Part shown: positions 27,729-47,885 of the stretch, piece after piece | How positions within the stretch are numbered: the first letter of the stretch is position 1 | Layout of the letters: each line of letters opens with the position of its first letter | From: Escherichia phage CMS-2020a | DNA: 64,000 bases | Sequence record: CP054387.1 | Strand: one strand, 5' to 3' | Position numbers and translations under genes: made by a program | Notes under the pieces: model-generated | What the model saw: only the letters and a program-made list of their open reading frames with translations | The model's database searches: none | Told to the model about the DNA's origin: nothing

Positions 27729-28985
27729 CTATCGAGAACCACCAAGAATAACACGGTTTTTGACTGGATACCTACGATGTACTGGATAGCCCAATGCGTC
27801 TGCACTATGCTCAATGCCACCTGTCTTATCCATATCTCGTGTTCCAGGCTTGTAGATGACTTTTTCCAGTGAATCAATCAAATGCTTGCACTTCGGATCG
27901 ATATACAGCCGGATATCTCCAGATGCGGACATCAGCATTCGGTTAACAGCATTAACACGATCCGCAATTGGCGGGTGCTTTTTCGAATAATCGACACGTA
28001 AGAATCCCTTCTCTTTGAATATGTCTACGTCAGACTCCCCACGAGCATGTTGGCGATAAGCACCTGCCGGATCTGGAAATACCGTTACCTGTGATTTCCA
28101 GCGCCAGAAGCGTCTCTCAAGCTCATCACAAACTTCTGCCGTGTTAGAGGAAAAGAGCACCAATTCATCAATTGCCCATAGCTCACCATTTGGCTGAGGT
28201 TGCAAAATTACTGAAGACATCGGGTCAATGTTGAAGTCCTGCCCTACCCATATAGGCAACCGAGGGTTGAACTGAAGCGGTTTTACATGCACGTTACGAT
28301 CGAACGGGTAGTAAACGCGCCCGGACATGTTCTCAAAGCTGGCCAGGTACTCCTGAGCGAACGATTTGGGGTCCATATCGTTCTTAGCAGCTTCAATTTC
28401 CGCCGTAGGTACAAACGGAGAATCGGCAGTTACAAACTGCCAGCTCTTCCACTGTCCCTTTCTTTGCAGCTCTACGTTCTGGCCTATAGTCCACAGTTTG
28501 TGAAATTCCGAGAAGCCTTTTGGCGTACCAATGATCAGTGCACCGCCGCGTGTCGATGAAAGAGTAGGTCGTAACACCTTGTACCAGGTGTCAGCCTTCA
28601 TATCCTGAAATTCATCAAGCACTACAAAATGCAACGCTACGCCGCGCAGAGTGTCAGGCTTATCAGCACCTTTGAGGGCGATCTCCGAACCGTTCTTCAA
28701 CACGATTGTCATCGTGGTGTCGTTCTTTTTCCTAACCCACTTACGAGGCAGAACTTCCTGTAGATCGTCCCACAAAATCTGGCGAGCCATCTGGTAAGTA
28801 GGAGCGACATACCAGACCCTTTGCTTTTTTTCCTTTGCCGCCGCACGAATAATAGTGGAGATCGACAACCGGGATTTTCCCCAGCGTCGACCAGCACAAA
28901 CAACTTTAAATCGATGCGGAGACTGGAAGACTTTCATCTGTCCAGAATGCAGTTGCACAAGACTGAGCGAGGACGGGATTGCCAT
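27729..28985 (-). CDS. terminase large subunit
   Basis: 418 aa; Walker A VVCAGRRWGKS, Walker B HFVVLDEFQD, acidic residues in C-terminal nuclease-like half. Confidence 0.8.
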   Translation of the reverse strand: MAIPSSLSLVQLHSGQMKVFQSPHRFKVVCAGRRWGKSRLSISTIIRAAAKEKKQRVWYVAPTYQMARQILWDDLQEVLPRKWVRKKNDTTMTIVLKNGSEIALKGADKPDTLRGVALHFVVLDEFQDMKADTWYKVLRPTLSSTRGGALIIGTPKGFSEFHKLWTIGQNVELQRKGQWKSWQFVTADSPFVPTAEIEAAKNDMDPKSFAQEYLASFENMSGRVYYPFDRNVHVKPLQFNPRLPIWVGQDFNIDPMSSVILQPQPNGELWAIDELVLFSSNTAEVCDELERRFWRWKSQVTVFPDPAGAYRQHARGESDVDIFKEKGFLRVDYSKKHPPIADRVNAVNRMLMSASGDIRLYIDPKCKHLIDSLEKVIYKPGTRDMDKTGGIEHSADALGYPVHRRYPVKNRVILGGSR

Positions 28986-29617
28986 TATTTGTCCTCCCCT
29001 TCACTTCCATCATCTGTCGCATCAAATTCGCTTAGAGCTTCTTCTTCCAACGTCTCAAGCAATTCGTCATCGATGATTTCAGGCTCGTCGTCTTCCTGAC
29101 GTAATTTCGCCACCTGGGAAGGCGTAAGCTCACCAAATACCAGGTTCGGAATTTCTTCCTCGTCATTTTCCGCATGATCCATGCCCAATGCTTTGGACGA
29201 AACTTCAAAGCATTTTGCAAGGGTATTACTGGCTCTCTGTAAGCTCTTGAGAGAATCCTCAATCGCCCCTAAAGGCTTACCCTCACGTTTGGCCGTAGTG
29301 ACTTCGACCATCACCATCTGCCCCAACGCATACGCCCAGCCGTCATAACGTGTACGACGTTCTTCTATCTTTTCCGCACGGGCTTTAGCGCGAAGCTCTG
29401 CGTCAGATTTAAGAGACTCACGAACCATCTTCCCAACAGAGTCCGCGCCTTTCTCTAATCCTCGCTTTTTGAAATGTCTGGAGAGTGTTTCACGACGAAT
29501 GCCGTACTCTTCCTCCAGCTTTGAGAGTGTATATTCGCCTGACGTCCATTTGGCTTCAGCTTCGGCCCACTCCGCTGGTGTCAGGCGAGTTTTTACCTCG
29601 TCTTTTTCGACCGTCAT
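28985..29617 (-). CDS. terminase small subunit candidate (HTH N-terminus, acidic C-terminus)
   Basis: 210 aa, start/stop-overlapped with TerL; N-terminal HTH-like segment (LSKLEEEYGIRRETLSRHFKKRGL). Confidence 0.5.
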   Translation of the reverse strand: MTVEKDEVKTRLTPAEWAEAEAKWTSGEYTLSKLEEEYGIRRETLSRHFKKRGLEKGADSVGKMVRESLKSDAELRAKARAEKIEERRTRYDGWAYALGQMVMVEVTTAKREGKPLGAIEDSLKSLQRASNTLAKCFEVSSKALGMDHAENDEEEIPNLVFGELTPSQVAKLRQEDDEPEIIDDELLETLEEEALSEFDATDDGSEGEDK

Positions 29618-29710
29618 AGATCCCTCTAAAACACACAGAGCGCGTCCATGCGCTCTAAAACAACTTGTTTACTGCATCTGCTAACCAACTTGTTTTCTGG
29701 GGTGTTTAAT

Positions 29711-29812
29711 TAGGTCTGGCATGTCTTACGAAGCCTGCTTCCGTATATATTTAATAAGTTACTTATTATTTATATATACAGATGCAGGTCTTTAAATAAG
29801 CTCCCAGACCGA
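29711..29812. promoter_or_regulatory. conserved palindromic intergenic element, copy 1 (upstream of terminase genes)
   Basis: aggtctggc...gcctgcttccgtatatatttaataagttacttattatttatatatacagatgcaggtc...cccagacc; inverted arms cctgcttccgtatata / tatatacagatgcagg around an AT-rich palindromic centre; second copy at 61221..61306. Confidence 0.5.
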
Positions 29813-30079
29813 TTACATCACCAGTAACTTCGCTTTGGCTCGACCTAAAGTGGTTAACCCAAGAGTTCGGCGGTGATAGCGATTGTCACTGCGTTGGCGC
29901 GTATGCCCTTTCTCCACCAGCCCCTTTTTTATCAGAGCGCGAATTGAGAACTGGATACTTTGCTTGGTTGTCTTGTACGGCAAAACTTCAAGCAATTCGT
30001 CCAGGTCAAGTAGATGACCTCGCTCATAACCGAGATTGAGCGTTTTGATGATGTCCTTTTGTTTATCGGTTAACGTCAT
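29813..30079 (-). CDS. winged-helix DNA-binding protein (putative regulator)
   Basis: 88 aa, basic C-terminus, directly upstream of palindromic element and terminase. Confidence 0.5.
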   Translation of the reverse strand: MTLTDKQKDIIKTLNLGYERGHLLDLDELLEVLPYKTTKQSIQFSIRALIKKGLVEKGHTRQRSDNRYHRRTLGLTTLGRAKAKLLVM

Positions 30080-30088
30080 GGCAAATCC

Positions 30089-30979
30089 TTATGCCGGTAA
30101 AGCAATTTCTAACGGTTTATCCAAAGGTTGTTTGTCGAATGCCAGCAATGGCAGCGTGTCAGGCAGTCGACGACCAAAGTCAGGGTTTCGATACACACCA
30201 TACAACGGAGACGTAAAGCTCAGGTTGTGAATGTCCTTGAGCAGCTTCACAATGCTGGCCTCGTCCACCAGACTGTCGGCAATGTCCTGAATCGTCGTGC
30301 CACGATTCCGCCCAGCTTTTGCCAGGGAACTGTTCTTGTGGTAGTCCGCCACCAGATCACGCAGTGCACGGCGACGACGAGACTCGCTCATTGCGAACAA
30401 CTCTTTGACGATCGCCTCGTTATCACCCGTGTCGGAACGGAAATGGCGCTGGAATACACGCAGTGCACTTTCATAGCTCTTCGGTCGCTCAGGGCGGATG
30501 AACTTAAACCCTGCTTTCATGGCGAAGGGATTGTATTTGCTCATCGAGGACTGGATCTCAATGATTGGCCGGTCATGCATCCTGCTAACCAGGTTAATCA
30601 TTCGATAAGAGACGCCTACGCCACGATACTGAGTATCCACAACTGAGCGACTGATCACCGCAAAGTTGTTATTCACGTACCGACCCCAGTACTGGTTAGC
30701 CACGGTGGTATTAGTGGTTGGTTTCAACTTAGGAAACATGCGGTGGCGAGGTGCCAACAGTAGTTTCGGGTAAGCCATAACCACGACGCCCACCAGACGA
30801 TCATCAAGTTCGCAGCGATAGTAAGTTGGCGCGAAAGGTTTGCCGTCTGTTTTGTAGTGAAGCGACTTAAGAGCGTGCCAGTCCTCTACAGTTCCCTTTG
30901 TAACAGTCATTCGCTCCAGAAAGTCCAGATGACGCGGAAACTCTTCAGGGCGGTAGCGTTTAATGATGATGTCCGTCAT
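30089..30979 (-). CDS. GNAT-fold acetyltransferase-like protein with C-terminal extension
   Basis: 296 aa; VVDTQYRGVGVSYRMINLV fits GNAT motif A (R/Q-x-x-G-x-G); YNPFAMKAGFKFI fits motif B; overlaps ABC ATPase gene by 4 nt. Confidence 0.5.
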   Translation of the reverse strand: MTDIIIKRYRPEEFPRHLDFLERMTVTKGTVEDWHALKSLHYKTDGKPFAPTYYRCELDDRLVGVVVMAYPKLLLAPRHRMFPKLKPTTNTTVANQYWGRYVNNNFAVISRSVVDTQYRGVGVSYRMINLVSRMHDRPIIEIQSSMSKYNPFAMKAGFKFIRPERPKSYESALRVFQRHFRSDTGDNEAIVKELFAMSESRRRRALRDLVADYHKNSSLAKAGRNRGTTIQDIADSLVDEASIVKLLKDIHNLSFTSPLYGVYRNPDFGRRLPDTLPLLAFDKQPLDKPLEIALPA

Positions 30980-31641
30980 AAATGGACCTCATCATGACTA
31001 CCATTGTGATATTCCACCTTCACGCGTTCTTTGTAGTGCTTGGTGATCTGCATATCCGGGCGCAGCGCGTTCTTCAGGTCTTCGTGAGTCGTCGCCACCA
31101 TTACCGTCGCACCAACCTTTCGAGCGGCACGCTGGAGGTTAGATGCCACAACCTGAGCGGTTACACGGTCTAGAACAGCACCGAACTCGTCAGCAGCCCA
31201 CACTTTAGCGCCTGACTCAATCAGTTTGGCAATCTTGAGACGATATTTCTGGCCGTCTGACATTTCAGAAGGCTTGCGAACAAACAGATATGCATCGTTC
31301 AGACCAGCCATAGATAACAACCCAAGCGCATCGCTGGTCGTTTTGCCCAACTGATCGATGACGTTAACCTCATTATCGAAGGTAAAATCATCGATGGAGG
31401 CTACAGACAGCCCTTCATCCTTCATCTGTCGTTGCAACTCGCGCAGCACAACGGATTTGCCGGAACCGGATTGGCCGGTGATGTACACCACATCGCCCTG
31501 CTTCACTTCCAGCTCCAGATTGTCGTAAAGCGTCCACTCTTTTTCGTCCAGGCCAAGCCCGAACGACTCAGCGATTTCCAACGTGCGCGTGGTTTTATTT
31601 ACGCGTGTCTGAAACGATACGTTGATGTTGTATTTGCTCAT
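30976..31641 (-). CDS. ABC-type ATPase (stand-alone nucleotide-binding domain)
   Basis: 221 aa; Walker A GQSGSGKS, signature-like SDGQKYRL, Walker B VWAADEFG, H-loop ATTHE. Confidence 0.8.
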   Translation of the reverse strand: MSKYNINVSFQTRVNKTTRTLEIAESFGLGLDEKEWTLYDNLELEVKQGDVVYITGQSGSGKSVVLRELQRQMKDEGLSVASIDDFTFDNEVNVIDQLGKTTSDALGLLSMAGLNDAYLFVRKPSEMSDGQKYRLKIAKLIESGAKVWAADEFGAVLDRVTAQVVASNLQRAARKVGATVMVATTHEDLKNALRPDMQITKHYKERVKVEYHNGSHDEVHL

Positions 31642-32306
31642 GCAGCCATCTCCCCGGAAGAGATCTTCTCCGCATATGCCACAAATGCGTCTACCCCGCT
31701 TTCTCCCGTCATTTCTTCCATATGGGCAAGCAAATCACCAACAACAATGGCAGAGCCAGCAGGGAGAGTTTTAAAGCCCAATACGTCGACAACACGTACT
31801 TCTTCCGCTGCAACTTCACGACTGATCTCGGTGTGTTCATCCTTCTGTCGTTTAGTTTCTTCGCTAAGATCGATAACTAGCGAGTCGGTGTCCATTTCTT
31901 CTGTCATACTGCCAACGAGAACATTCAACTCACGCTCTTCAAAGCCGAAAACCTCGATATCGTCCAGAACAAGCGACTCAAGCTCTTTCTGTAGCTTAAT
32001 TGCATCGTAATCAATGCTGGCAAGTCGGTTATCTTCAAGGCGCTTCGCACGAACCTCGTCATCACTGAGATCATCGCGAACAATAACCGGTACACGCTCA
32101 AGTCCAGCAAAAATTGCAGCCTCACGGCGGCCGTGGCCAGTAATAATTACGTCGTTCTTATCGACCGTAATTGGCTGGTCAAATCCGCGCTTTTTAATGG
32201 CTGCGGCCAGATCTCTGATCTGCTGTTCATCATGCTTTTTGGCATTCATCTCATAGGGAATAAGATCTGCCGGGTCGCGATATACGATTTCAAACTTTTT
32301 GGTCAT
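31638..32306 (-). CDS. ParB-like nuclease domain protein 1
   Basis: Start at ATG 32306 (AAGGAG upstream, TAATG overlap with upstream stop); IITGHGRREAAIFAGLERVPVIVRD matches ParB/Srx GxxRxxAA box. Confidence 0.7.
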   Translation of the reverse strand: MTKKFEIVYRDPADLIPYEMNAKKHDEQQIRDLAAAIKKRGFDQPITVDKNDVIITGHGRREAAIFAGLERVPVIVRDDLSDDEVRAKRLEDNRLASIDYDAIKLQKELESLVLDDIEVFGFEERELNVLVGSMTEEMDTDSLVIDLSEETKRQKDEHTEISREVAAEEVRVVDVLGFKTLPAGSAIVVGDLLAHMEEMTGESGVDAFVAYAEKISSGEMAA

Positions 32307-33004
32307 TACATACGCTCCTTGTAGTAGTCGACCAGCCACACTAGAGCCTCACCAGCGTTTTCCATTTCATTGCCAGTATTAATTGCCTGGTCTTTGATGA
32401 TGTTTTTTATGGTTTCTGCAACGCGATCTGACGCATCGAAGGTTACTTTGAAGCGCATGGTCTGATGTTCCGCACCGACACGTTCGGTTTTCTCTCGTTT
32501 GTCGGTATCGACAGGCTCATCACTACCACGAGACAACGCCTCCAGTGCTTCAAGGTCGATTGCCGCCTCTTTTGCTAAAACCATCGAGATTTCGTCGTCA
32601 TACGGGGCGATTTCAGACAGTTGATAGTCAAGTTCTGACTGAATTTCTTCAATGAAGCGTTGCAATGCGATTTGGTCGTCTTCACCGTATCGCTCGTTGT
32701 CCACCAGTGACATCTGTTTTGCCACGACATCGCTAATTTTGCCCACAGAAAGCACAGGAACCGTTGAAATTCCTTGCTCAATAGCAGCACGCCAGCGATG
32801 TTCGCCGCCGAGGATTTCAAAAAATCCATCTTCAAGCTCACGAGCCAAAATTGGCTTAAAAAAGCCCAATTTTTCGATAGAACCTTTCAGTTTTTCGAAA
32901 TTCTGCGCACCAACCGAATTGGTGTTCCAGGTATTCGGGCGAAGGTTGGCAACATCAACCTGCAAAATCGTGATTTTTACGTCCATTTTATTGCTACAAT
33001 CCAC
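32306..33004 (-). CDS. ParB-like nuclease domain protein 2
   Basis: 232 aa (start ambiguous, GTG 33004 or ATG 32986); ILGGEHRWRAAIEQGISTVPV is a ParB-type motif. Confidence 0.7.
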   Translation of the reverse strand: MDCSNKMDVKITILQVDVANLRPNTWNTNSVGAQNFEKLKGSIEKLGFFKPILARELEDGFFEILGGEHRWRAAIEQGISTVPVLSVGKISDVVAKQMSLVDNERYGEDDQIALQRFIEEIQSELDYQLSEIAPYDDEISMVLAKEAAIDLEALEALSRGSDEPVDTDKREKTERVGAEHQTMRFKVTFDASDRVAETIKNIIKDQAINTGNEMENAGEALVWLVDYYKERM

Positions 33005-33068
33005 TAAGTAATCACTTACTTATTATAATAGCCAAATAACATACAAAAGGCACTAAGGAAAGAGGTTT

Positions 33069-34628
33069 ATGACTGTTCGGATTGTATCTAACGCAGTAAA
33101 TGCGCTTATTTCTGGCGCAGATGACAAGGTAAAGCAACTGGTGCAGCAAATGTTGAGCTACGAAGTCGAGGCTGGCGACTGGAAGGGCACAAGCACAATG
33201 TTCAACTGGAGCAAAAACTCGTTCCCTGCTGGCTTTGCCAAGCCCGTGGCGGCTAATTTGAACAAGGCGGGCATCAAATGTGTTCATATCCGCAAAGACA
33301 AAGCCCCGGCGCTTGGTAAACCAAATCCGGCGGTTAACCCATTCCCATACAATCCTGATTATGCGTATCAGGATCAGACTGTGGAAACACTGGTTCGAGA
33401 GGGAATGATGATTGCGCAGATCGCTACTGGTGGCGGGAAATCTAACGTTGCCTGCAAAGCAGCTGCACGTATCGGTCGAATGACATTATTTTTAACAACC
33501 CGCTCTGTTCTGATGTTTCAAATGGCCGAAAACTTCCAGAGATCCATCGACTACCGCGCCGAAAATGGCGAACCGTGGTTAAAGGGCCAAAAGGTTGGAG
33601 TCATTGGCTCGGGTGAGTTCCAGGTATCACGACATATCAACGTCGCTACAGTTCAAACTCTGGCAAGTTTCCTTGAAGAACCACCACGCGATGCAACACC
33701 AGATAAAAAGAGCTACCACCTCAAACGTCGGGAGTTGGTGAAACGCTTCCTTTCAAGTGTGTCTCTGCTTATTCTGGAAGAAGCGCATGAGTCTTCAGGC
33801 TCTAATTTCTATGACATTGCTAGATTATGTGTGAACGCAGACTATCGTCTGGCGCTTACAGCCACGCCGTTCATGAAGGATTCGACGGAAGCCAACATGC
33901 GCCTGATGGCGATGGCCGGGCGAATTGAAATTAAAGTCACAGAAAAGTATCTGATTGATCGAGGCATTCTGGCAAAGCCGTACTTCCTTTATCATAAAGT
34001 TGCCTACAAGCCAGACGAGGCCAGAATCAAGGCCGAACTTGCCAACAAACACCTCAATTTTAGAGTTGGTATGAGCACCGCCTACCAAAAGGCTTATCAG
34101 TTGGGGATCGTGTATAATTTGGGACGTAACGAGGCCATTGTGCGCGAAGCATTGCTCTATAAGCAACATTCTCTCAATTGCATGACTCTGGTTCGTCTTA
34201 AACGCCACGGGCAAATCCTGATGGAGATGATGAAGGAGTCCGGCCTTATAGTTGACTTCATCTATGGGGAATCGAACCAGGCGACAAGGCAAGCAAAGCT
34301 GAACAGTTTAGCGTCTGGCGAAATAGATGTTTTAATAGGCTCGACTATTCTGGATGTCGGTGTTGATGTGCCAAGCGTTGGTGCGGTCATTCTGGCTGGT
34401 GGTGGGAAAGCAGAAGTTGAAATGAGACAGCGTGTCGGTCGTGGCTTACGAGCCAAGAAGAATCAGGCAAACGTGTGTTTTATCACTGATTTCATTGACA
34501 TTAGCAACAAATACCTGTTGTCTCACTCTTATGAGCGAAAACACATCATCGACACCACACCTGGCTTTGCAGAAGGTGTATTGCCTGTTGATGGCGCATT
34601 CGATTTTGGAGTTCTGAAACGAGATTAG
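33069..34628 (+). CDS. SF2 DEAD/DEAH-box-type helicase
   Basis: 519 aa; motif I ATGGGKS, motif II LILEEAHE, motif III LTATP, motif VI RQRVGRGLR; RBS AAGGAAAGAGG upstream. Confidence 0.85.
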   Translation: MTVRIVSNAVNALISGADDKVKQLVQQMLSYEVEAGDWKGTSTMFNWSKNSFPAGFAKPVAANLNKAGIKCVHIRKDKAPALGKPNPAVNPFPYNPDYAYQDQTVETLVREGMMIAQIATGGGKSNVACKAAARIGRMTLFLTTRSVLMFQMAENFQRSIDYRAENGEPWLKGQKVGVIGSGEFQVSRHINVATVQTLASFLEEPPRDATPDKKSYHLKRRELVKRFLSSVSLLILEEAHESSGSNFYDIARLCVNADYRLALTATPFMKDSTEANMRLMAMAGRIEIKVTEKYLIDRGILAKPYFLYHKVAYKPDEARIKAELANKHLNFRVGMSTAYQKAYQLGIVYNLGRNEAIVREALLYKQHSLNCMTLVRLKRHGQILMEMMKESGLIVDFIYGESNQATRQAKLNSLASGEIDVLIGSTILDVGVDVPSVGAVILAGGGKAEVEMRQRVGRGLRAKKNQANVCFITDFIDISNKYLLSHSYERKHIIDTTPGFAEGVLPVDGAFDFGVLKRD

Positions 34629-44593: not shown

Positions 44594-46627
44594 TTACTTA
44601 ACCTGGTGGCCAGGTTTAGCACCAGCATCCGGGCTTAACAGGAAGATATCTTTCCCGCCAGGACCGGCAGCCATCACCATGCCTTCAGAGATACCGAAGC
44701 GCATTTTACGTGGTGCCAGGTTAGCCACCATAATGGTGTGACGACCAATCAGTGCCTGTGGATCTGGATAAGCGGAACGGATGCCTGAGAAGACATTACG
44801 CTTTTCACCACCGAGATCCAGCGTCAGGCGAAGCAGTTTGTCAGAACCTTCGACAAACTCCGCGTTTTCAATCAGCGCCACACGCAGGTCAACTTTGGCG
44901 AAGTCGTCAAAGGTGATGGTTTCCTGAATCGGTTCGTCAGCCAGTGGGCCAGTTACCGGTGCAGCTGTGGCTTTCACTTCTTCTTTGGATGCTTCCACCA
45001 GTGCTTCCACCTGTTTCATATCGATACGGTTATACAGTGCCTTGAACGGATTCACTTTATGGCCCAGAAGCGGTTGCTGGATACCATCCCAGGTCAGTTC
45101 TGTATTCAGGAATGCTTCTGCACGTTCAGTCAGTTTCGGCAGTACCGGTTTCAGGTACGTCATCAGCACGCGGAACAGGTTAATGCCCATAGAGCAAATC
45201 GCCTGCAGATCTGCATCGCGACCTTCCTGCTTCGCCACCACCCACGGAGCCTGTTCATCGACATAGCGATTAGCCAGGTCAGCCAATGCCATGATTTCAC
45301 GGATAGCTTTACCAAATTCGCGGCTTTCCCATGCTTCGCCAATCACTTCAGCGGCATCAGTAAAGGTTTTGTACAGTTGCGGGTCAGCCAGTTCGCTTGT
45401 CAGCACGCCGTCAAAACGCTTGTTGATAAAGCCTGCATTACGGGAGGCCAGGTTAACCACTTTGTTCACGATATCGGCATTCACGCGCTGAACGAAATCT
45501 TCCAGGTTGAGATCGATATCATCAATGCGCGAAGAGAGTTTCGCAGTGTAGTAGTAACGCAGGCTGTCAGCGTCAAAATGATTCAGCCAGGTGCTGGCTT
45601 TAATAAAGGTGCCGCGAGACTTGGACATCTTCGCGCCGTTCACCGTCACATAGCCGTGAACAAACAGGTTGGTCGGCTTGCGGAAGTTGCTGCCTTCCAG
45701 CATGGCAGGCCAGAACAGACTGTGGAAGTAAACGATATCTTTGCCGATGAAGTGGTACAGCTCGGCGGTGGAGTCTTTCTTCCAGTATTCGTCGAAGCTT
45801 ACGCTGTCGCCGCGCTTGTCGCACAGATTCTTGAAAGAACCCATGTAGCCAATCGGCGCGTCCAGCCAGACGTAGAAATATTTGCCCGGCGCGTTCGGAA
45901 TTTCAAAACCGAAGTAAGGGGCGTCGCGGGAGATATCCCACTGTTGCAGGCCAGATTCAAACCACTCCTGCATTTTATTTGCCACCTGCTCCTGCAACGC
46001 ACCGCTGCGGGTCCATGCCTGCAACATTTCGCTGAAAGAGGGCAGATCAAAGAAGAAGTGTTCAGAATCACGCATTACCGGCGTAGCGCCAGAAACCACC
46101 GATTTCGGCTCGATCAGTTCAGTCGGGCTGTAGGTCGCGCCGCAGACTTCGCAGTTATCGCCGTATTGATCCGGGGATTTACATTTCGGGCAGGTGCCTT
46201 TTACAAAACGGTCCGGCAGGAACATGCATTTTTCCGGATCGTACAGCTGTGAGATGGTGCGGTTTTTAATAAAACCGTTTTCTTTCAGGCGAGAGTAGAT
46301 AAGCTCGGACAACTGACGGTTCTCTTCGCTGTGCGTCGAGTGATAGTTGTCATAGCTGATGTTAAAGCCTGCGAAATCAGTCTGATGTTCCTGACTCATT
46401 TCGCCAATCATCTGTTCCGGTGTGATACCAAGCTGCTGTGCTTTCAGCATGATTGGCGTACCGTGGGCATCGTCGGCACAGATGAAATTAACCTCGTGGC
46501 CGCGCATTCGCTGGTAACGAACCCAGACATCAGCCTGGATGTGCTCCAGCATATGGCCGAGGTGGATTGAGCCGTTAGCGTACGGCAGCGCGCACGTCAC
46601 CAGAATTTTCTTCGCGACTTGGGTCAT
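44594..46627 (-). CDS. metG: methionine--tRNA ligase
   Basis: Translation from internal Met ([48 protein letters not shown]...) matches enterobacterial MetRS as I recall it, including HLGH and KMSKS motifs and C-terminal tRNA-binding domain; ORF-track N-terminal extension rejected. Confidence 0.97.
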
Positions 46628-46784
46628 AGTAGGCATTACTTCTTTGTAGTGAAAAGGGGCTTGATAGTAACAAAATGGCCTTATGTCTGCCATGTGATAA
46701 CAGCATTTCTCATAAATGATTAAATGTCGTAGCTGGAGTACACTACAAGGCGACAATTGCGCAAATTAAAATAAAGGAGACGGG

Positions 46785-47885
46785 ATGAGCGAGTCCAAAT
46801 CGCCGGATGCCCTGAGAGCAATGGTAGCCGGTACGCTGGCTAATTTTCAGCACCCAACCCTGAAACACAACTTGACTACGCTTAAAGCGTTACACCATGT
46901 TGCGTTGATGGATGACACACTGCATGTCGAACTAATCATGCCTTTCGTGTGGAATAAGCCTTTTGAAGACCTGAAAGAGCAATGTAGTGGTGATCTGCTC
47001 CGTATCACTGGCGCAAAGGCTATTGACTGGAAGCTGTCGTACAACATTGCCACGCTTAAGCGCGTCAAAAACCAACCAGGCATTAATGGCGTTAAGAACA
47101 TTATCGCCGTCAGCTCAGGCAAGGGCGGCGTGGGTAAATCCTCCACAGCAGTAAACTTGGCACTGGCTTTGGCTGCTGAAGGTGCGAAAGTTGGTATTTT
47201 GGATGCCGATATCTATGGTCCATCAATTCCAACCATGCTGGGCGCGGAAAACCAACGTCCAACCTCACCGGACGGTACTCACATGGCACCTATCATGTCT
47301 CATGGCCTGGCAACCAACTCTATTGGTTATCTGGTCACCGATGACAATGCAATGGTGTGGCGTGGACCGATGGCGAGCAAGGCGCTGATGCAGATGTTGC
47401 AGGAAACACTGTGGCCTGATCTGGACTATCTCGTTCTCGATATGCCACCGGGCACTGGTGATATTCAATTGACGCTGGCGCAGAACATTCCTGTAACTGG
47501 TGCGGTTGTGGTAACTACGCCGCAAGACATCGCGCTGATCGATGCGAAGAAAGGCATTGTGATGTTCGAAAAAGTCGAAGTGCCGGTACTGGGTATCGTT
47601 GAAAACATGAGTGTGCATATTTGCAGTAACTGCGGTCATCACGAGCCAATTTTTGGCACCGGTGGAGCACAGAAACTGGCCGAGAAATACAACACGCAGT
47701 TGTTAGGCCAAATGCCACTTCATATCTCTCTTCGTGAAGATCTGGATAACGGAACACCAACCGTTATTAGTCGTCCAGATAGCGAATTTACGGCTATTTA
47801 TCGTGACCTCGCAGATCGCGTTGCTGCCCAAATGTATTGGCAAGGTGAAGTAATACCTGGCGAAATCGCATTCCGCGCAGTGTGA
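46785..47885 (+). CDS. apbC: Fe-S cluster carrier ATPase ApbC/Mrp
   Basis: 366 aa; P-loop SSGKGGVGKSSTAVNLA, CxxC motif HICSNCGH; divergent from metG as in enterobacterial chromosomes. Confidence 0.95.
   Translation: MSESKSPDALRAMVAGTLANFQHPTLKHNLTTLKALHHVALMDDTLHVELIMPFVWNKPFEDLKEQCSGDLLRITGAKAIDWKLSYNIATLKRVKNQPGINGVKNIIAVSSGKGGVGKSSTAVNLALALAAEGAKVGILDADIYGPSIPTMLGAENQRPTSPDGTHMAPIMSHGLATNSIGYLVTDDNAMVWRGPMASKALMQMLQETLWPDLDYLVLDMPPGTGDIQLTLAQNIPVTGAVVVTTPQDIALIDAKKGIVMFEKVEVPVLGIVENMSVHICSNCGHHEPIFGTGGAQKLAEKYNTQLLGQMPLHISLREDLDNGTPTVISRPDSEFTAIYRDLADRVAAQMYWQGEVIPGEIAFRAV

What the first reader, a model, noticed from the sequence alone, without database searches (positions are those of the whole stretch)
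30089..33004. Overlapping four-gene operon ParB-like, ParB-like, ABC ATPase, GNAT-like directly upstream of the terminase genes
Seen in sequence: four minus-strand genes are translationally coupled by 1-4 nt overlaps (TAATG/ATGA): two different ParB/Srx-type proteins, a stand-alone ABC nucleotide-binding domain (Walker A GQSGSGKS, signature SDGQKYRL, Walker B VWAADE) and a GNAT-fold protein with a ~130-aa C-terminal extension. Established knowledge: ParB-like nuclease domains occur in phage packaging and DNA-modification loci, and GNAT folds include DNA-modifying enzymes such as Mu Mom. Inference: this specific four-gene combination is not one I recognise; it could be a DNA modification or anti-restriction module, or an unusual packaging-initiation accessory.
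Basis: partly seen in the sequence, partly recalled or inferred. Interest (0 to 1): 0.65.

Follow-up and report, generated by a model that had tools for sequence, protein, structure and literature searches.

The report
ParB-guided ATP-dependent acyltransferase module beside terminase
The four genes are real and form a widespread but never-tested phage module, a ParB-like DNA-binding partner plus an ATP-driven acyl-CoA transferase split into two genes, that most likely puts an acyl group on the phage's own DNA around the time of packaging.

Summary
The window is an SSU5-like phage-plasmid, 99.7% identical to Escherichia phage PhiR41_1. It carries four overlapping minus-strand genes: ParB-like, ParB-like, an ABC nucleotide-binding domain and a GNAT-fold protein. 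A fifth coupled gene, a small winged-helix protein, and a structured 195-nt spacer lie between them and the terminase genes. The ABC and GNAT genes are two halves of one enzyme. Hundreds of distant relatives are single ABC+GNAT polypeptides ('ABC-type ATPase with predicted acetyltransferase domain'). Aravind's group has already predicted this enzyme type to acylate a DNA base. It recurs next to the large terminase gene, fused or adjacent to DNA polymerase B, and beside acyl-donor or tailoring enzymes in unrelated bacterial and archaeal viruses. The second ParB is its conserved partner in unrelated small phages (Pasteurella Pmp13, Streptococcus Javan141, Rhodococcus Jace). The first ParB is specific to the SSU5/nickie clade. 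Partition and transport roles are unlikely. I favour ParB-targeted, ATP-dependent acylation of phage DNA (about 0.5). This is a member of a predicted but experimentally untested kind. It can be tested directly in E. coli K-12 phages.

The parts
32306..33004 (-). ParB-like protein 1 (ParB/Srx N-terminal domain plus an acidic helical C-terminal part). The probable true start is the ATG at 32986. It is an addition specific to the SSU5/nickie clade.
   Evidence: PF02195 E = 3.4e-13 and phrog_723 E = 2.7e-79. The GGEHR and DN.RYG motifs are invariant in 27 relatives. It is present in all 26 genome loci. ParB proteins of unrelated phages match it far less well than they match ParB2.
31638..32306 (-). 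ParB-like protein 2, the conserved partner of the ABC-GNAT enzyme. It resembles the N-terminal domain of ParB-methyltransferase fusions.
   Evidence: PF02195 E = 1.3e-8, phrog_930 E = 3.2e-112, phrog_498 'DNA methyltransferase' N-terminal part E = 1.6e-31, and PADLOC MTase_II N-terminal part E = 2.2e-17. The GHGR motif is invariant. The ParB genes upstream of ABC-GNAT in Pasteurella phage Pmp13 and Streptococcus phage Javan141 hit its HMM at 1.6e-40 and 5.7e-37.
30976..31641 (-). Stand-alone ABC nucleotide-binding domain. It is the ATPase half of a split ABC-GNAT enzyme.
   Evidence: PF00005 E = 5.6e-13. All catalytic motifs are conserved. It is as conserved as the large terminase, 53-66% against 54-65% identity in distant relatives. 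It is fused to the GNAT half in most distant relatives. No permease gene is nearby.
30089..30979 (-). GNAT-fold acyl-CoA transferase half (core about residues 24-165) with a conserved helical C-terminal extension of about 130 residues.
29813..30079 (-). Small winged-helix DNA-binding protein, 9 nt downstream of the GNAT gene. It is a likely fifth member of the transcription unit.
   Evidence: phrog_900 E = 1.9e-45, with weak LexA-type and Sta1/Lrs14 winged-helix hits. It is detected directly after the GNAT gene in 20 of the 26 loci, often with a 4-nt overlap.
29618..29812 (-). Structured spacer between the module and the terminase genes. It holds a ~95-nt imperfect palindrome, a second hairpin built on two direct repeats, and a GC hairpin with a U-run just before the small-terminase ribosome-binding site.
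   Evidence: RNA fold -68.9 kcal/mol, z = -6.85 against shuffles. The repeats are and the terminator-like site. Coordinate 1 of the SSU5 and Cyrano records falls inside the palindrome.
28985..29617 (-). Putative small terminase subunit (DNA-binding protein). Its stop overlaps the large-terminase start.
   Evidence: phrog_867 E = 3.7e-100. It is conserved in the relatives.
27729..28985 (-). Large terminase subunit. This is the gene class that recurs next to ABC-GNAT in unrelated viruses.
   Evidence: Terminase_6N E = 3.1e-9 and phrog_10250/phrog_2. A large terminase sits directly upstream of fused ABC-GNAT in archaeal proviruses.
33069..34628 (+). Divergently transcribed superfamily-2 helicase. 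It is a conserved neighbour of the module, with no evidence that it belongs to it functionally.
   Evidence: ResIII, DEAD and Helicase_C hits, and phrog_16. It is conserved in the same position in 25 of the 26 loci; the short contig L027 does not reach that far.

Best explanation
The locus is a phage DNA-acylation module. Shown: the ABC and GNAT genes are the two halves of one enzyme, an ABC nucleotide-binding domain joined to a GNAT acyl-CoA transferase. ParB-like protein 2 is its conserved partner, and ParB-like protein 1 is a second paralogue added in the SSU5/nickie clade. Inferred: the ParB/Srx proteins bind or clamp phage DNA in a nucleotide-dependent way and recruit or activate the enzyme. 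ATP-driven dimerisation of the ABC domains closes two GNAT domains on the DNA. The GNAT then transfers an acyl group (acetyl, or an aminoacyl-type group) from acyl-CoA to an exocyclic amine of a base, as Mu Mom does. The genes lie at the head of the morphogenesis gene block, next to the terminase genes. DNA would therefore be marked as it is replicated or packaged, protecting it from restriction in the next host.
Against: No experiment shows that DNA of any phage carrying this module is modified. I found no report of restriction-resistant DNA for SSU5, nickie or RHEph10 relatives. The similarity to Mom is only at fold level; generic protein and small-molecule GNATs score as well, and the Mom Pfam model does not match the window protein. 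None of 164 loci with fused ABC-GNAT has a ParB gene nearby, so ParB is not required for the enzyme in general. Genes next to terminase genes are a mixed bag in phages, so position alone is weak evidence. Many of the terminase-adjacent loci belong to one provirus clade and are not independent. The SSU5 version has no donor-synthesis gene of its own. The 2013 paper that made the original prediction could not be read.
Confidence: 0.5

Rival explanations
1. It is a packaging accessory. The ParB-like proteins mark or nick the DNA near the packaging start. The ATP-dependent GNAT acetylates a protein, such as terminase, portal, capsid or a DNA-bound host nucleoid protein, to license or clear DNA for packaging. 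No base is modified.
For: ABC-GNAT recurs immediately next to the large terminase in unrelated viruses, often translationally coupled. In Gordonia phage AnClar it is interleaved with the HNH endonuclease and terminase genes. In the window the module heads the morphogenesis gene block, with a structured spacer before the small terminase. The ABC gene is as conserved as the large terminase. Most well-characterised GNATs among the fold matches act on proteins or small molecules.
Against: The enzyme also occurs away from terminase genes: in a replication-gene block directly upstream of DNA polymerase III alpha, fused or adjacent to PolB, at the end of tail operons, and in a jumbo-phage locus whose ±4 kb shows no terminase gene. 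Neighbouring donor-synthesis and tailoring enzymes (PanD with a CoA-transferase, formyltransferase, amidoligase) are hard to explain for simple protein acetylation. No known terminase system needs an acetyltransferase (my own knowledge).
Confidence: 0.2
2. It is a host-takeover or anti-defence enzyme. The ATP-dependent GNAT acylates a host protein, a tRNA or ribosome component, or a signalling nucleotide. The ParB-like proteins act separately, as nucleotide-hydrolysing or nicking enzymes.
For: Phage GNATs that modify host proteins are known, for example Rac of phiKMV-like phages, as summarised in PMC7824862. ParB/Srx domains can be NTPases or nucleases in conflict systems (PMC5512222). The ABC domain is of the transporter/ABC-F type, not the SMC/Rad50 type. 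Variable moron-like genes are inserted between ABC and GNAT in relatives.
Against: The genes are slowly evolving and syntenic core genes across an old clade, unlike typical counter-defence cargo. They lie with late genes rather than early genes. There is no PADLOC or anti-defence signal. The ParB-plus-ABC-GNAT pairing with overlapping genes in unrelated phages argues that the proteins work together.
Confidence: 0.12
3. It is a plasmid-partition or DNA-segregation system of the phage-plasmid. Two ParB proteins would act as centromere binders, with the ABC ATPase standing in for ParA.
For: The window is a phage-plasmid. ParB pairs in the related Acinetobacter (AB) phage-plasmid group have been read as partition genes (PMC7969092). 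Both proteins carry the ParB N-terminal domain.
Against: The same ParB-ParB-ABC-GNAT-terminase order is kept in phages isolated as free virions, such as nickie, RHEph10 and Stenotrophomonas phages. The ParB2 plus ABC-GNAT pair occurs in a streptococcal prophage (Javan141) and in small phages Pmp13 and Jace whose annotated genes point to a temperate lifestyle, and ABC-GNAT occurs in a Mu-like phage and in jumbo phages. The ParB partition model TIGR00180 scores below its cut-off and no helix-turn-helix domain is detected. No ParA gene is adjacent. No significant repeated parS-like site was found.
Confidence: 0.05
4. It is an ABC transporter, as most database records annotate the ABC and GNAT genes.
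For: The ABC_tran Pfam hit and many transporter equivalog hits, all far below their cut-offs. GenBank names such as 'ABC transporter ATP-binding subunit'.
Against: There is no membrane domain or permease gene in any locus examined. The supposed second 'ATP-binding subunit' is a GNAT fold with no P-loop. Every NCBIfam transporter hit is far below its threshold.
Confidence: 0.01

Closest known systems
ABC ATPase-GNAT proteins of phages, predicted by Iyer, Zhang, Burroughs and Aravind (NAR 2013) to acylate a DNA base, as cited in Iyer et al. 2021 (PMC7824862). The exemplar is Tenacibaculum phage pT24. Annotated in COG and IMG as 'ABC-type ATPase with predicted acetyltransferase domain'.
   Same: The same two domains, homologous over both. 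pT24 also has them as two adjacent genes. Both are viral, and neither has a characterised function.
   Different: The window version has a ~130-residue C-terminal extension, shared with the long archaeal and Firmicute fused forms but much shorter in the ~365-aa forms. It is accompanied by two ParB-like proteins and a winged-helix protein. I could not read the 2013 paper to see which of these contexts it already described.
Mom of phage Mu, a GNAT-fold enzyme that modifies adenine N6 in DNA (PDB 8bv8)
   Different: There is no sequence-level membership: the Mom Pfam model does not hit the window protein and hits Pmp13_0048 only at E = 0.034. Mom works without an ATPase or a ParB partner. Generic GNATs match the fold equally well.
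ParB-domain partners of DNA-modifying enzymes: ParB-methyltransferase fusions, ParB-dependent clade-E phage thymine dioxygenases, and DpdB of the Dpd 7-deazaguanine system
   Same: ParB2 matches the N-terminal domain of ParB-methyltransferase families (phrog_498 E = 1.6e-31; PADLOC MTase_II E = 2.2e-17). A separate ParB-like protein is required for activity of clade-E dioxygenases. The genes overlap with the enzyme gene and lie near the terminase genes.
   Different: The enzyme here is an acyltransferase with its own ATPase, not a methyltransferase or dioxygenase. There are two ParB paralogues. Dependence of the enzyme on ParB is untested. The DpdB comparison rests on my own knowledge.
TmcA / NAT10, ATP-dependent GNAT enzymes that acetylate cytidine N4 in RNA
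   Same: The same logic: a P-loop ATPase joined to a GNAT that acylates a nucleic-acid base (my own knowledge).
ParABS plasmid and chromosome partition systems
   Same: The ParB N-terminal (CTP-binding type) domain with the GxxR motif.
   Different: There is no ParA, no detected helix-turn-helix or dimerisation domain, and no parS repeats. The module also occurs in phages not known to be maintained as plasmids.

Membership tests
ABC ATPase-GNAT predicted DNA-acylation enzymes (Iyer et al. 2013/2021; 'ABC-type ATPase with predicted acetyltransferase domain') | ABC-type nucleotide-binding domain with intact Walker A, signature, Walker B plus glutamate, and H-loop | tested here: met
   PF00005 at 50.1 bits against a cut-off of 25. 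The motifs are invariant in 26 relatives.
ABC ATPase-GNAT predicted DNA-acylation enzymes (Iyer et al. 2013/2021; 'ABC-type ATPase with predicted acetyltransferase domain') | GNAT domain homologous to the one fused C-terminally to the ABC domain | tested here: met
   A profile of the window protein's family finds fused proteins at E = 1e-27 to 1e-15, aligned in their C-terminal halves. The fused protein P0343 covers both window genes in tblastn. hhalign to the short fused family gives 88% probability, E = 3e-6.
ABC ATPase-GNAT predicted DNA-acylation enzymes (Iyer et al. 2013/2021; 'ABC-type ATPase with predicted acetyltransferase domain') | The two domains in one polypeptide or in adjacent co-oriented genes | tested here: met
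   The genes are adjacent with a 4-nt ATGA overlap. The named exemplar pT24 is also split into two genes.
ABC ATPase-GNAT predicted DNA-acylation enzymes (Iyer et al. 2013/2021; 'ABC-type ATPase with predicted acetyltransferase domain') | Homology to the published exemplar in Tenacibaculum phage pT24 | tested here: met
   Jace gp86 matches pT24 at E = 4e-48 and the ABC gene of the window's clade at E = 1e-17 in the same search. The link is transitive, not a direct pairwise test.
ABC ATPase-GNAT predicted DNA-acylation enzymes (Iyer et al. 2013/2021; 'ABC-type ATPase with predicted acetyltransferase domain') | Acyl transfer to a DNA base | not testable with these tools
   This is a prediction only, in the literature as well. 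It needs nucleoside mass spectrometry or an in vitro assay.
Mom family (phage Mu DNA adenine modification) | Match to the Mom sequence family (Pfam PF25680) | tested here: not met
   There is no hit for the window protein at E <= 0.1. Pmp13_0048 gives only a weak E = 0.034.
Mom family (phage Mu DNA adenine modification) | GNAT fold | tested here: met
ParB/Srx superfamily (N-terminal domain) | ParB_N domain with the conserved GxxR nucleotide-binding motif | tested here: met
   PF02195 is above threshold for both proteins. GGEHR (ParB1) and GHGR (ParB2) are invariant.
ParABS partition systems | Full-length ParB with helix-turn-helix and dimerisation domains (TIGR00180 above its cut-off) | tested here: not met
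   TIGR00180 scores 43.2 and 43.3 bits against a cut-off of 58.45. Only the N-terminal domain is matched.
ParABS partition systems | Adjacent ParA ATPase and repeated parS sites | tested here: not met
   There is no ParA in the block. No repeat family stands above chance. The only ParA-superfamily gene seen in the window is an Mrp/NUBPL homologue 14 kb away, next to metG.
ABC transporters | Membrane permease partner, or an equivalog-level match to a transporter ATPase | tested here: not met
   No permease gene occurs in any locus. All NCBIfam transporter hits are far below their cut-offs, for example 61.7 bits against 195.
ParB-methyltransferase fusions | DNA methyltransferase domain C-terminal to the ParB domain | tested here: not met
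   ParB2 matches only the N-terminal ~150 positions of phrog_498 (633 positions) and PDLC03229 (436 positions). No methyltransferase Pfam hit was found.

The most novel reading that the evidence does not exclude
The ParB2/ABC/GNAT module writes a so far unobserved N-acyl base (acetyl, or an aminoacyl-type group such as beta-alanyl that some phages then formylate or extend) into phage DNA. The reaction would depend on ATP and on ParB, and would be coupled to replication or packaging. If so, a new class of DNA hypermodification would be present in SSU5/pHCM2-type phage-plasmids of enterobacteria (a Yersinia pestis contig among them), in Streptococcus pyogenes and lactococcal prophages, in Gordonia phages, and in many archaeal proviruses.
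Probability: 0.4. Interest if true: 0.8.

Novelty: new member of a known kind. Interest (0 to 1): 0.5.

Why it matters
If the module acylates DNA, it would add a second, much more widespread family of acyl-type DNA base modifications beside Mu Mom. It would also show a new way of targeting such an enzyme, through a ParB partner and an ABC ATPase clamp. The module is a core gene set of the SSU5/pHCM2-type phage-plasmids that circulate in Salmonella, E. coli and Klebsiella (a related contig comes from Yersinia pestis). It also occurs in prophages of Streptococcus pyogenes and in dairy lactococcal phages. It could therefore affect host range, restriction evasion and how well these DNAs sequence or clone. 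Carriers such as PhiR41_1 grow on E. coli K-12, so a prediction dating from 2013 can be tested with routine nucleoside mass spectrometry and gene deletions. At the least, the database names 'ABC transporter' and 'partition protein' for these genes are misleading.

Tried and rejected
**Searches that gave nothing**
- A sequence search of the GNAT family against PDB chains gave only a chance coiled-coil hit.
- NCBIfam and PADLOC gave nothing for the GNAT protein, and only generic P-loop or methyltransferase N-domain hits for the others.
- The sigma-70 promoter scan found no minus-strand promoter, and no more sites than chance.
- Repeat searches for a parS- or pac-like array found only short two-copy matches. 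The palindrome TAATAAGTNACTTATTA occurs twice, which 4 of 100 shuffles also reach.
- The first viral-contig scan with the GNAT family returned only near-identical SSU5-type contigs. Scans with distant fused and unfused relatives were needed.
- Literature searches for COG2401, for 'ABC-type ATPase fused', and for SSU5 with ParB-like and ABC found no functional study.
- The 2013 NAR paper could not be opened by PMC id or DOI.
- Papers on phages related to nickie and to ANB28 say nothing about these genes or about DNA modification.
- Stenotrophomonas phage DLP3 has restriction-resistant DNA. However, it belongs to another lineage, and its ParB-like protein is a virion protein after the portal gene, so I did not use it.

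**Ideas considered and dropped**
- Homing endonucleases as the cause of the ABC/GNAT split. The inserted genes are instead an N4 gp49-like protein, a HAD phosphatase, a BTLCP protease and unknowns.
- An A32-like packaging ATPase at the N-terminus of ~900-aa fusions. The hit is only E = 0.015, below threshold, so it is left as a lead.
- Partition and transporter roles (see the rival explanations).
Full report
**What is there**

The window is an SSU5-like phage-plasmid. The 2.9-kb region is 99.7% identical to Escherichia phage PhiR41_1, 98.8% to phage Cyrano and 85.5% to Salmonella phage SSU5.

Four minus-strand ORFs occupy 30089-33004. Their junctions are TAATG, ATGA and ATGA. The first gene probably starts at the ATG at 32986, as annotated in the related records.

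- Both upstream proteins pass Pfam's threshold for the ParB N-terminal domain.
- The third passes the threshold for ABC_tran.
- All four fall in well-populated PHROG families: 723, 930, 293 and 886.

An 88-aa winged-helix gene (phrog_900) follows the fourth gene after 9 nt. Next comes a 195-nt spacer, then a small-terminase-like gene, the large terminase and the portal gene. The module is therefore near the terminase genes but not directly adjacent to them.

**Is the fourth protein a GNAT?**

On its own it fails Pfam (Acetyltransf_10, E = 0.036). It has no sequence relatives in the PDB.

- A family alignment of 34 sequences gave a confident AlphaFold model (pLDDT 87).
- The CoA-pyrophosphate motif (R119-x-x-G122-x-S/A) and the NxxA...AGF motif are invariant across the family.
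- The last ~130 residues form a conserved helical extension.
- Among viral structure models, a Mom homologue is rank 2. Several 'endonuclease-like' proteins of 530-700 residues also rank high. They may be the Mom-nuclease fusions described in jumbo phages by Iyer et al. 2021, but I did not check this.

**ABC and GNAT are one enzyme**

A profile search of 1.84 billion representative proteins found 891 relatives of the GNAT protein.

- Most distant full-length ones among the 150 listed are ~450-500 residues long, with the GNAT-like part in the C-terminal half. All ten that I scanned have ABC_tran in front of it.
- A second search with these fused proteins found more than 2,000 members. Many are from Bathyarchaeia and Nitrososphaerota, some from Firmicutes.
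- IMG names several of them 'ABC-type ATPase with predicted acetyltransferase domain', the same name that the Cyrano record gives the window's GNAT gene.
- A fused bacterial member covers both window genes in tblastn.
- A shorter fused family (~365 aa) is linked by hhalign at 88% probability, E = 3e-6.

In the window's clade all ABC catalytic motifs are invariant. The ABC protein is as conserved as the large terminase, 53-66% against 54-65% identity in the distant relatives. No permease gene is present anywhere. The 'ABC transporter' annotation is therefore wrong.

**Distribution of the four-gene arrangement**

In 26 genomes of gamma- and alphaproteobacteria the order is kept. It runs: helicase (divergent), ParB1, ParB2, ABC, GNAT, usually the winged-helix gene, small terminase, large terminase, portal. 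This holds down to ~40% identity of the GNAT protein, mostly on ~100-115-kb contigs.

The same order is found in isolated phages such as Pseudomonas phage nickie, Rhizobium phage RHEph10, and Stenotrophomonas and Xanthomonas phages.

All of these share one phage backbone, so their synteny alone does not prove a functional unit. Many of them carry one or two extra, variable genes between ABC and GNAT, or between ParB2 and ABC. These include an N4 gp49-like protein, a HAD/PNKP-type phosphatase, a BTLCP protease and unknowns. Translational coupling is therefore not obligatory.

**Independent contexts of the ABC-GNAT enzyme**

These carry the weight of the argument.

1. **Terminase.** In archaeal proviruses the fused gene directly follows the large terminase, with a 4-nt overlap. 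Among 80 viral contigs, 36 of the 67 upstream neighbours I could call are large terminases, typically ending a few nucleotides before or overlapping the ABC-GNAT start. Overall, 73 of 164 loci have a large terminase within the flank. Many of these belong to one provirus clade and are not independent.
2. **Replication genes.** A PolB-ABC-GNAT single ORF exists, and an intein-bearing PolB lies directly upstream in another contig. In one phage contig ABC-GNAT sits directly upstream of DNA polymerase III alpha, with DnaB about 5 kb upstream in the same gene block.
3. **Ends of tail operons.** In some proviruses the gene follows the tail genes and precedes a staphylococcal-type nuclease. In the Mu-like Burkholderia phage phiE255 it follows the tail-fibre genes. 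That is where mom sits in Mu (my own knowledge).
4. **Small phages with a ParB gene.** In Pasteurella phage Pmp13, Rhodococcus phage Jace and Streptococcus phage Javan141, a ~180-aa ParB_N protein is immediately followed by ABC-GNAT, a few genes upstream of the terminase genes. Annotations overlapping the match show a ParB-domain gene (often labelled 'DNA modification methylase', as in Javan141) at the same place in other streptococcal phages and, as a 'type II adenine-specific methyltransferase', in an Oenococcus phage; homologous ABC-GNAT genes also occur in Lactococcus P335 and Porphyromonas phages.

The ParB proteins of Pmp13 and Javan141 match my HMM of the window clade's ParB2 at 1.6e-40 and 5.7e-37. 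They match ParB1 at only 1.4e-14 and 2.8e-10. ParB2 is therefore the conserved partner and ParB1 a clade-specific addition. The same HMMs find no ParB in 164 loci with long fused forms, so ParB is a frequent but not universal partner.

**Neighbouring chemistry**

- Jace encodes, directly after ABC-GNAT, an aspartate decarboxylase (E = 2e-33) and a family III CoA-transferase (E = 2e-8). I read this pair as a route to beta-alanyl-CoA; that reading is inference.
- A formyltransferase follows ABC-GNAT in both Gordonia phage AnClar and Burkholderia phage phiE255.
- Amidoligase_2 follows it in three other proviral loci: one in the Firmicute Heliorestis, where a gamma-glutamyl-cyclotransferase-like gene is also present, and two IMG/VR contigs whose hosts I did not identify.
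- In a 107-kb high-GC viral contig, a SAM methyltransferase and four other genes sit between the ABC and GNAT genes.

Such donor-making and tailoring enzymes are what one expects around a hypermodification pathway. They are hard to fit to plain protein acetylation.

**What is already known**

Iyer et al. [quoted passage not shown] They cite their 2013 NAR paper and name Tenacibaculum phage pT24.

pT24's two genes belong to the same family as the window's. I could not open the 2013 paper, and I found no experimental study.

Separately, a 2025 preprint shows that one clade of phage thymine dioxygenases needs a co-expressed ParB-like protein. ParB2 also resembles the N-terminal domain of ParB-methyltransferase fusions. 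ParB-type partners of DNA-modifying enzymes therefore have precedent.

**Most likely mechanism (confidence about 0.5)**

Shown:
- A catalytically intact ABC ATPase and a GNAT acyl-CoA transferase form one split enzyme.
- A ParB2-type protein is its recurrent partner.
- The set is a slowly evolving core block next to the terminase genes.

Inferred:
- The ParB proteins bind phage DNA in a nucleotide-dependent way and recruit or activate the enzyme.
- ATP-driven dimerisation of the ABC domains closes the GNAT domains on DNA.
- An acyl group is transferred to a base amine, as with Mom.
- This happens as the DNA is replicated or packaged, and it protects the DNA in the next host.

Against:
- No modified base has been reported for any carrier.
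- The similarity to Mom is at fold level only.
- Genes beside terminase genes are functionally mixed.

**Rivals**

- A packaging accessory that acetylates a protein (0.2). It fits the terminase linkage, but not the PolB fusions, the tail-operon positions or the neighbouring donor-making enzymes.
- A host-takeover or anti-defence enzyme (0.12). It fits phage GNAT precedents, but not the core-gene behaviour or the coupling to ParB.
- Plasmid partition (0.05). It is contradicted by the module's presence in a streptococcal prophage, a Mu-like phage and jumbo phages, and by the lack of ParA, of a helix-turn-helix domain and of parS repeats.
- A transporter (0.01). It is excluded by the fold of the second protein and the lack of a permease.

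**Verdict**

The locus is an ordinary, near-identical copy of a known phage-plasmid. It is a member of an enzyme type whose role in DNA modification was predicted more than a decade ago. It is not new in kind. It remains experimentally untouched, it is widespread in clinically and industrially relevant phages, and it can be tested in E. coli K-12. Interest is moderate (0.5).

Noticed in passing
window 29618-29812 (between the winged-helix gene and the small-terminase gene): The spacer is unusually structured. As minus-strand RNA it folds at -68.9 kcal/mol, z = -6.85 against shuffles. It holds a ~95-nt imperfect AT-rich palindrome, a second hairpin built on two direct repeats (AAACAACTTGTTTACTG / AACCAACTTGTTTTCTG), and a GC hairpin with a U-run just before the small-terminase ribosome-binding site. 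Coordinate 1 of both the SSU5 and Cyrano records falls inside the palindrome. It could be a terminator or antiterminator, or a packaging or end-processing site.
   Followed up: partly
window 33009-33025 and 29752-29768: A palindromic motif, TAATAAGTTACTTATTA, in the spacer recurs with two mismatches in the short divergent region between ParB1 and the helicase gene. Two matches are only marginally above chance: 4 of 100 shuffles reach two. It might be a shared operator.
   Followed up: partly
window 44594-46756 (-) and 46785-47885 (+): The phage-plasmid carries a full-length methionyl-tRNA synthetase (tRNA-synt_1g, E = 2.9e-165, with anticodon-binding and tRNA_bind domains). Divergently beside it is an Mrp/NUBPL-type iron-sulfur P-loop ATPase (E = 2.4e-102). 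As far as I recall, this is the arrangement of metG and mrp on the E. coli chromosome, which suggests a captured host segment.
   Followed up: partly
loci L003-L028, between the ABC and GNAT genes and between ParB2 and ABC: The ABC/GNAT junction is a hot spot for insertion of unrelated small genes. They include an 84-aa ORF in SSU5-type elements, an N4 gp49/Sf6 gp66-family protein in the Photobacterium locus L011, a HAD/PNKP-type phosphatase, a BTLCP transglutaminase-like protease and several unknowns. Many alphaproteobacterial (and one Methylocystis) relatives carry a further ~120-160-aa ORF between ParB2 and ABC.
   Followed up: partly
proteins P0194, P0201, P0235 (about 880-910 aa): Some ABC-GNAT proteins have a ~440-residue N-terminal extension. 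It has a P-loop (weak Pox_A32 packaging-ATPase hit, E = 0.015, below threshold) followed by what looks by eye like a PD-(D/E)xK nuclease motif. An ATPase-plus-nuclease layout would recall a terminase. This is unconfirmed.
   Followed up: partly
protein P0164 (847 aa) and locus L176 2336-5980: There is an intein with a LAGLIDADG endonuclease inside the ABC domain of one ABC-GNAT protein. Another sits in the PolB gene directly upstream of ABC-GNAT in a viral contig.
   Followed up: no
locus L278 (Rhodococcus phage Jace) 5122-6233: A phage-encoded aspartate decarboxylase (PanD, E = 2e-33) and a family III CoA-transferase fragment lie directly after the ABC-GNAT gene. They might form a pathway to a beta-alanyl-CoA donor.
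   Followed up: partly
GenBank/RefSeq records of SSU5, PhiR41_1, nickie and others: The annotations of this block are inconsistent and misleading. The GNAT protein is called 'ABC transporter ATP-binding subunit'. ParB2 is called 'DNA modification methylase' or 'DNA methyltransferase'. The formyltransferase of Gordonia phage AnClar is called 'tRNA-methyltransferase'.
   Followed up: yes
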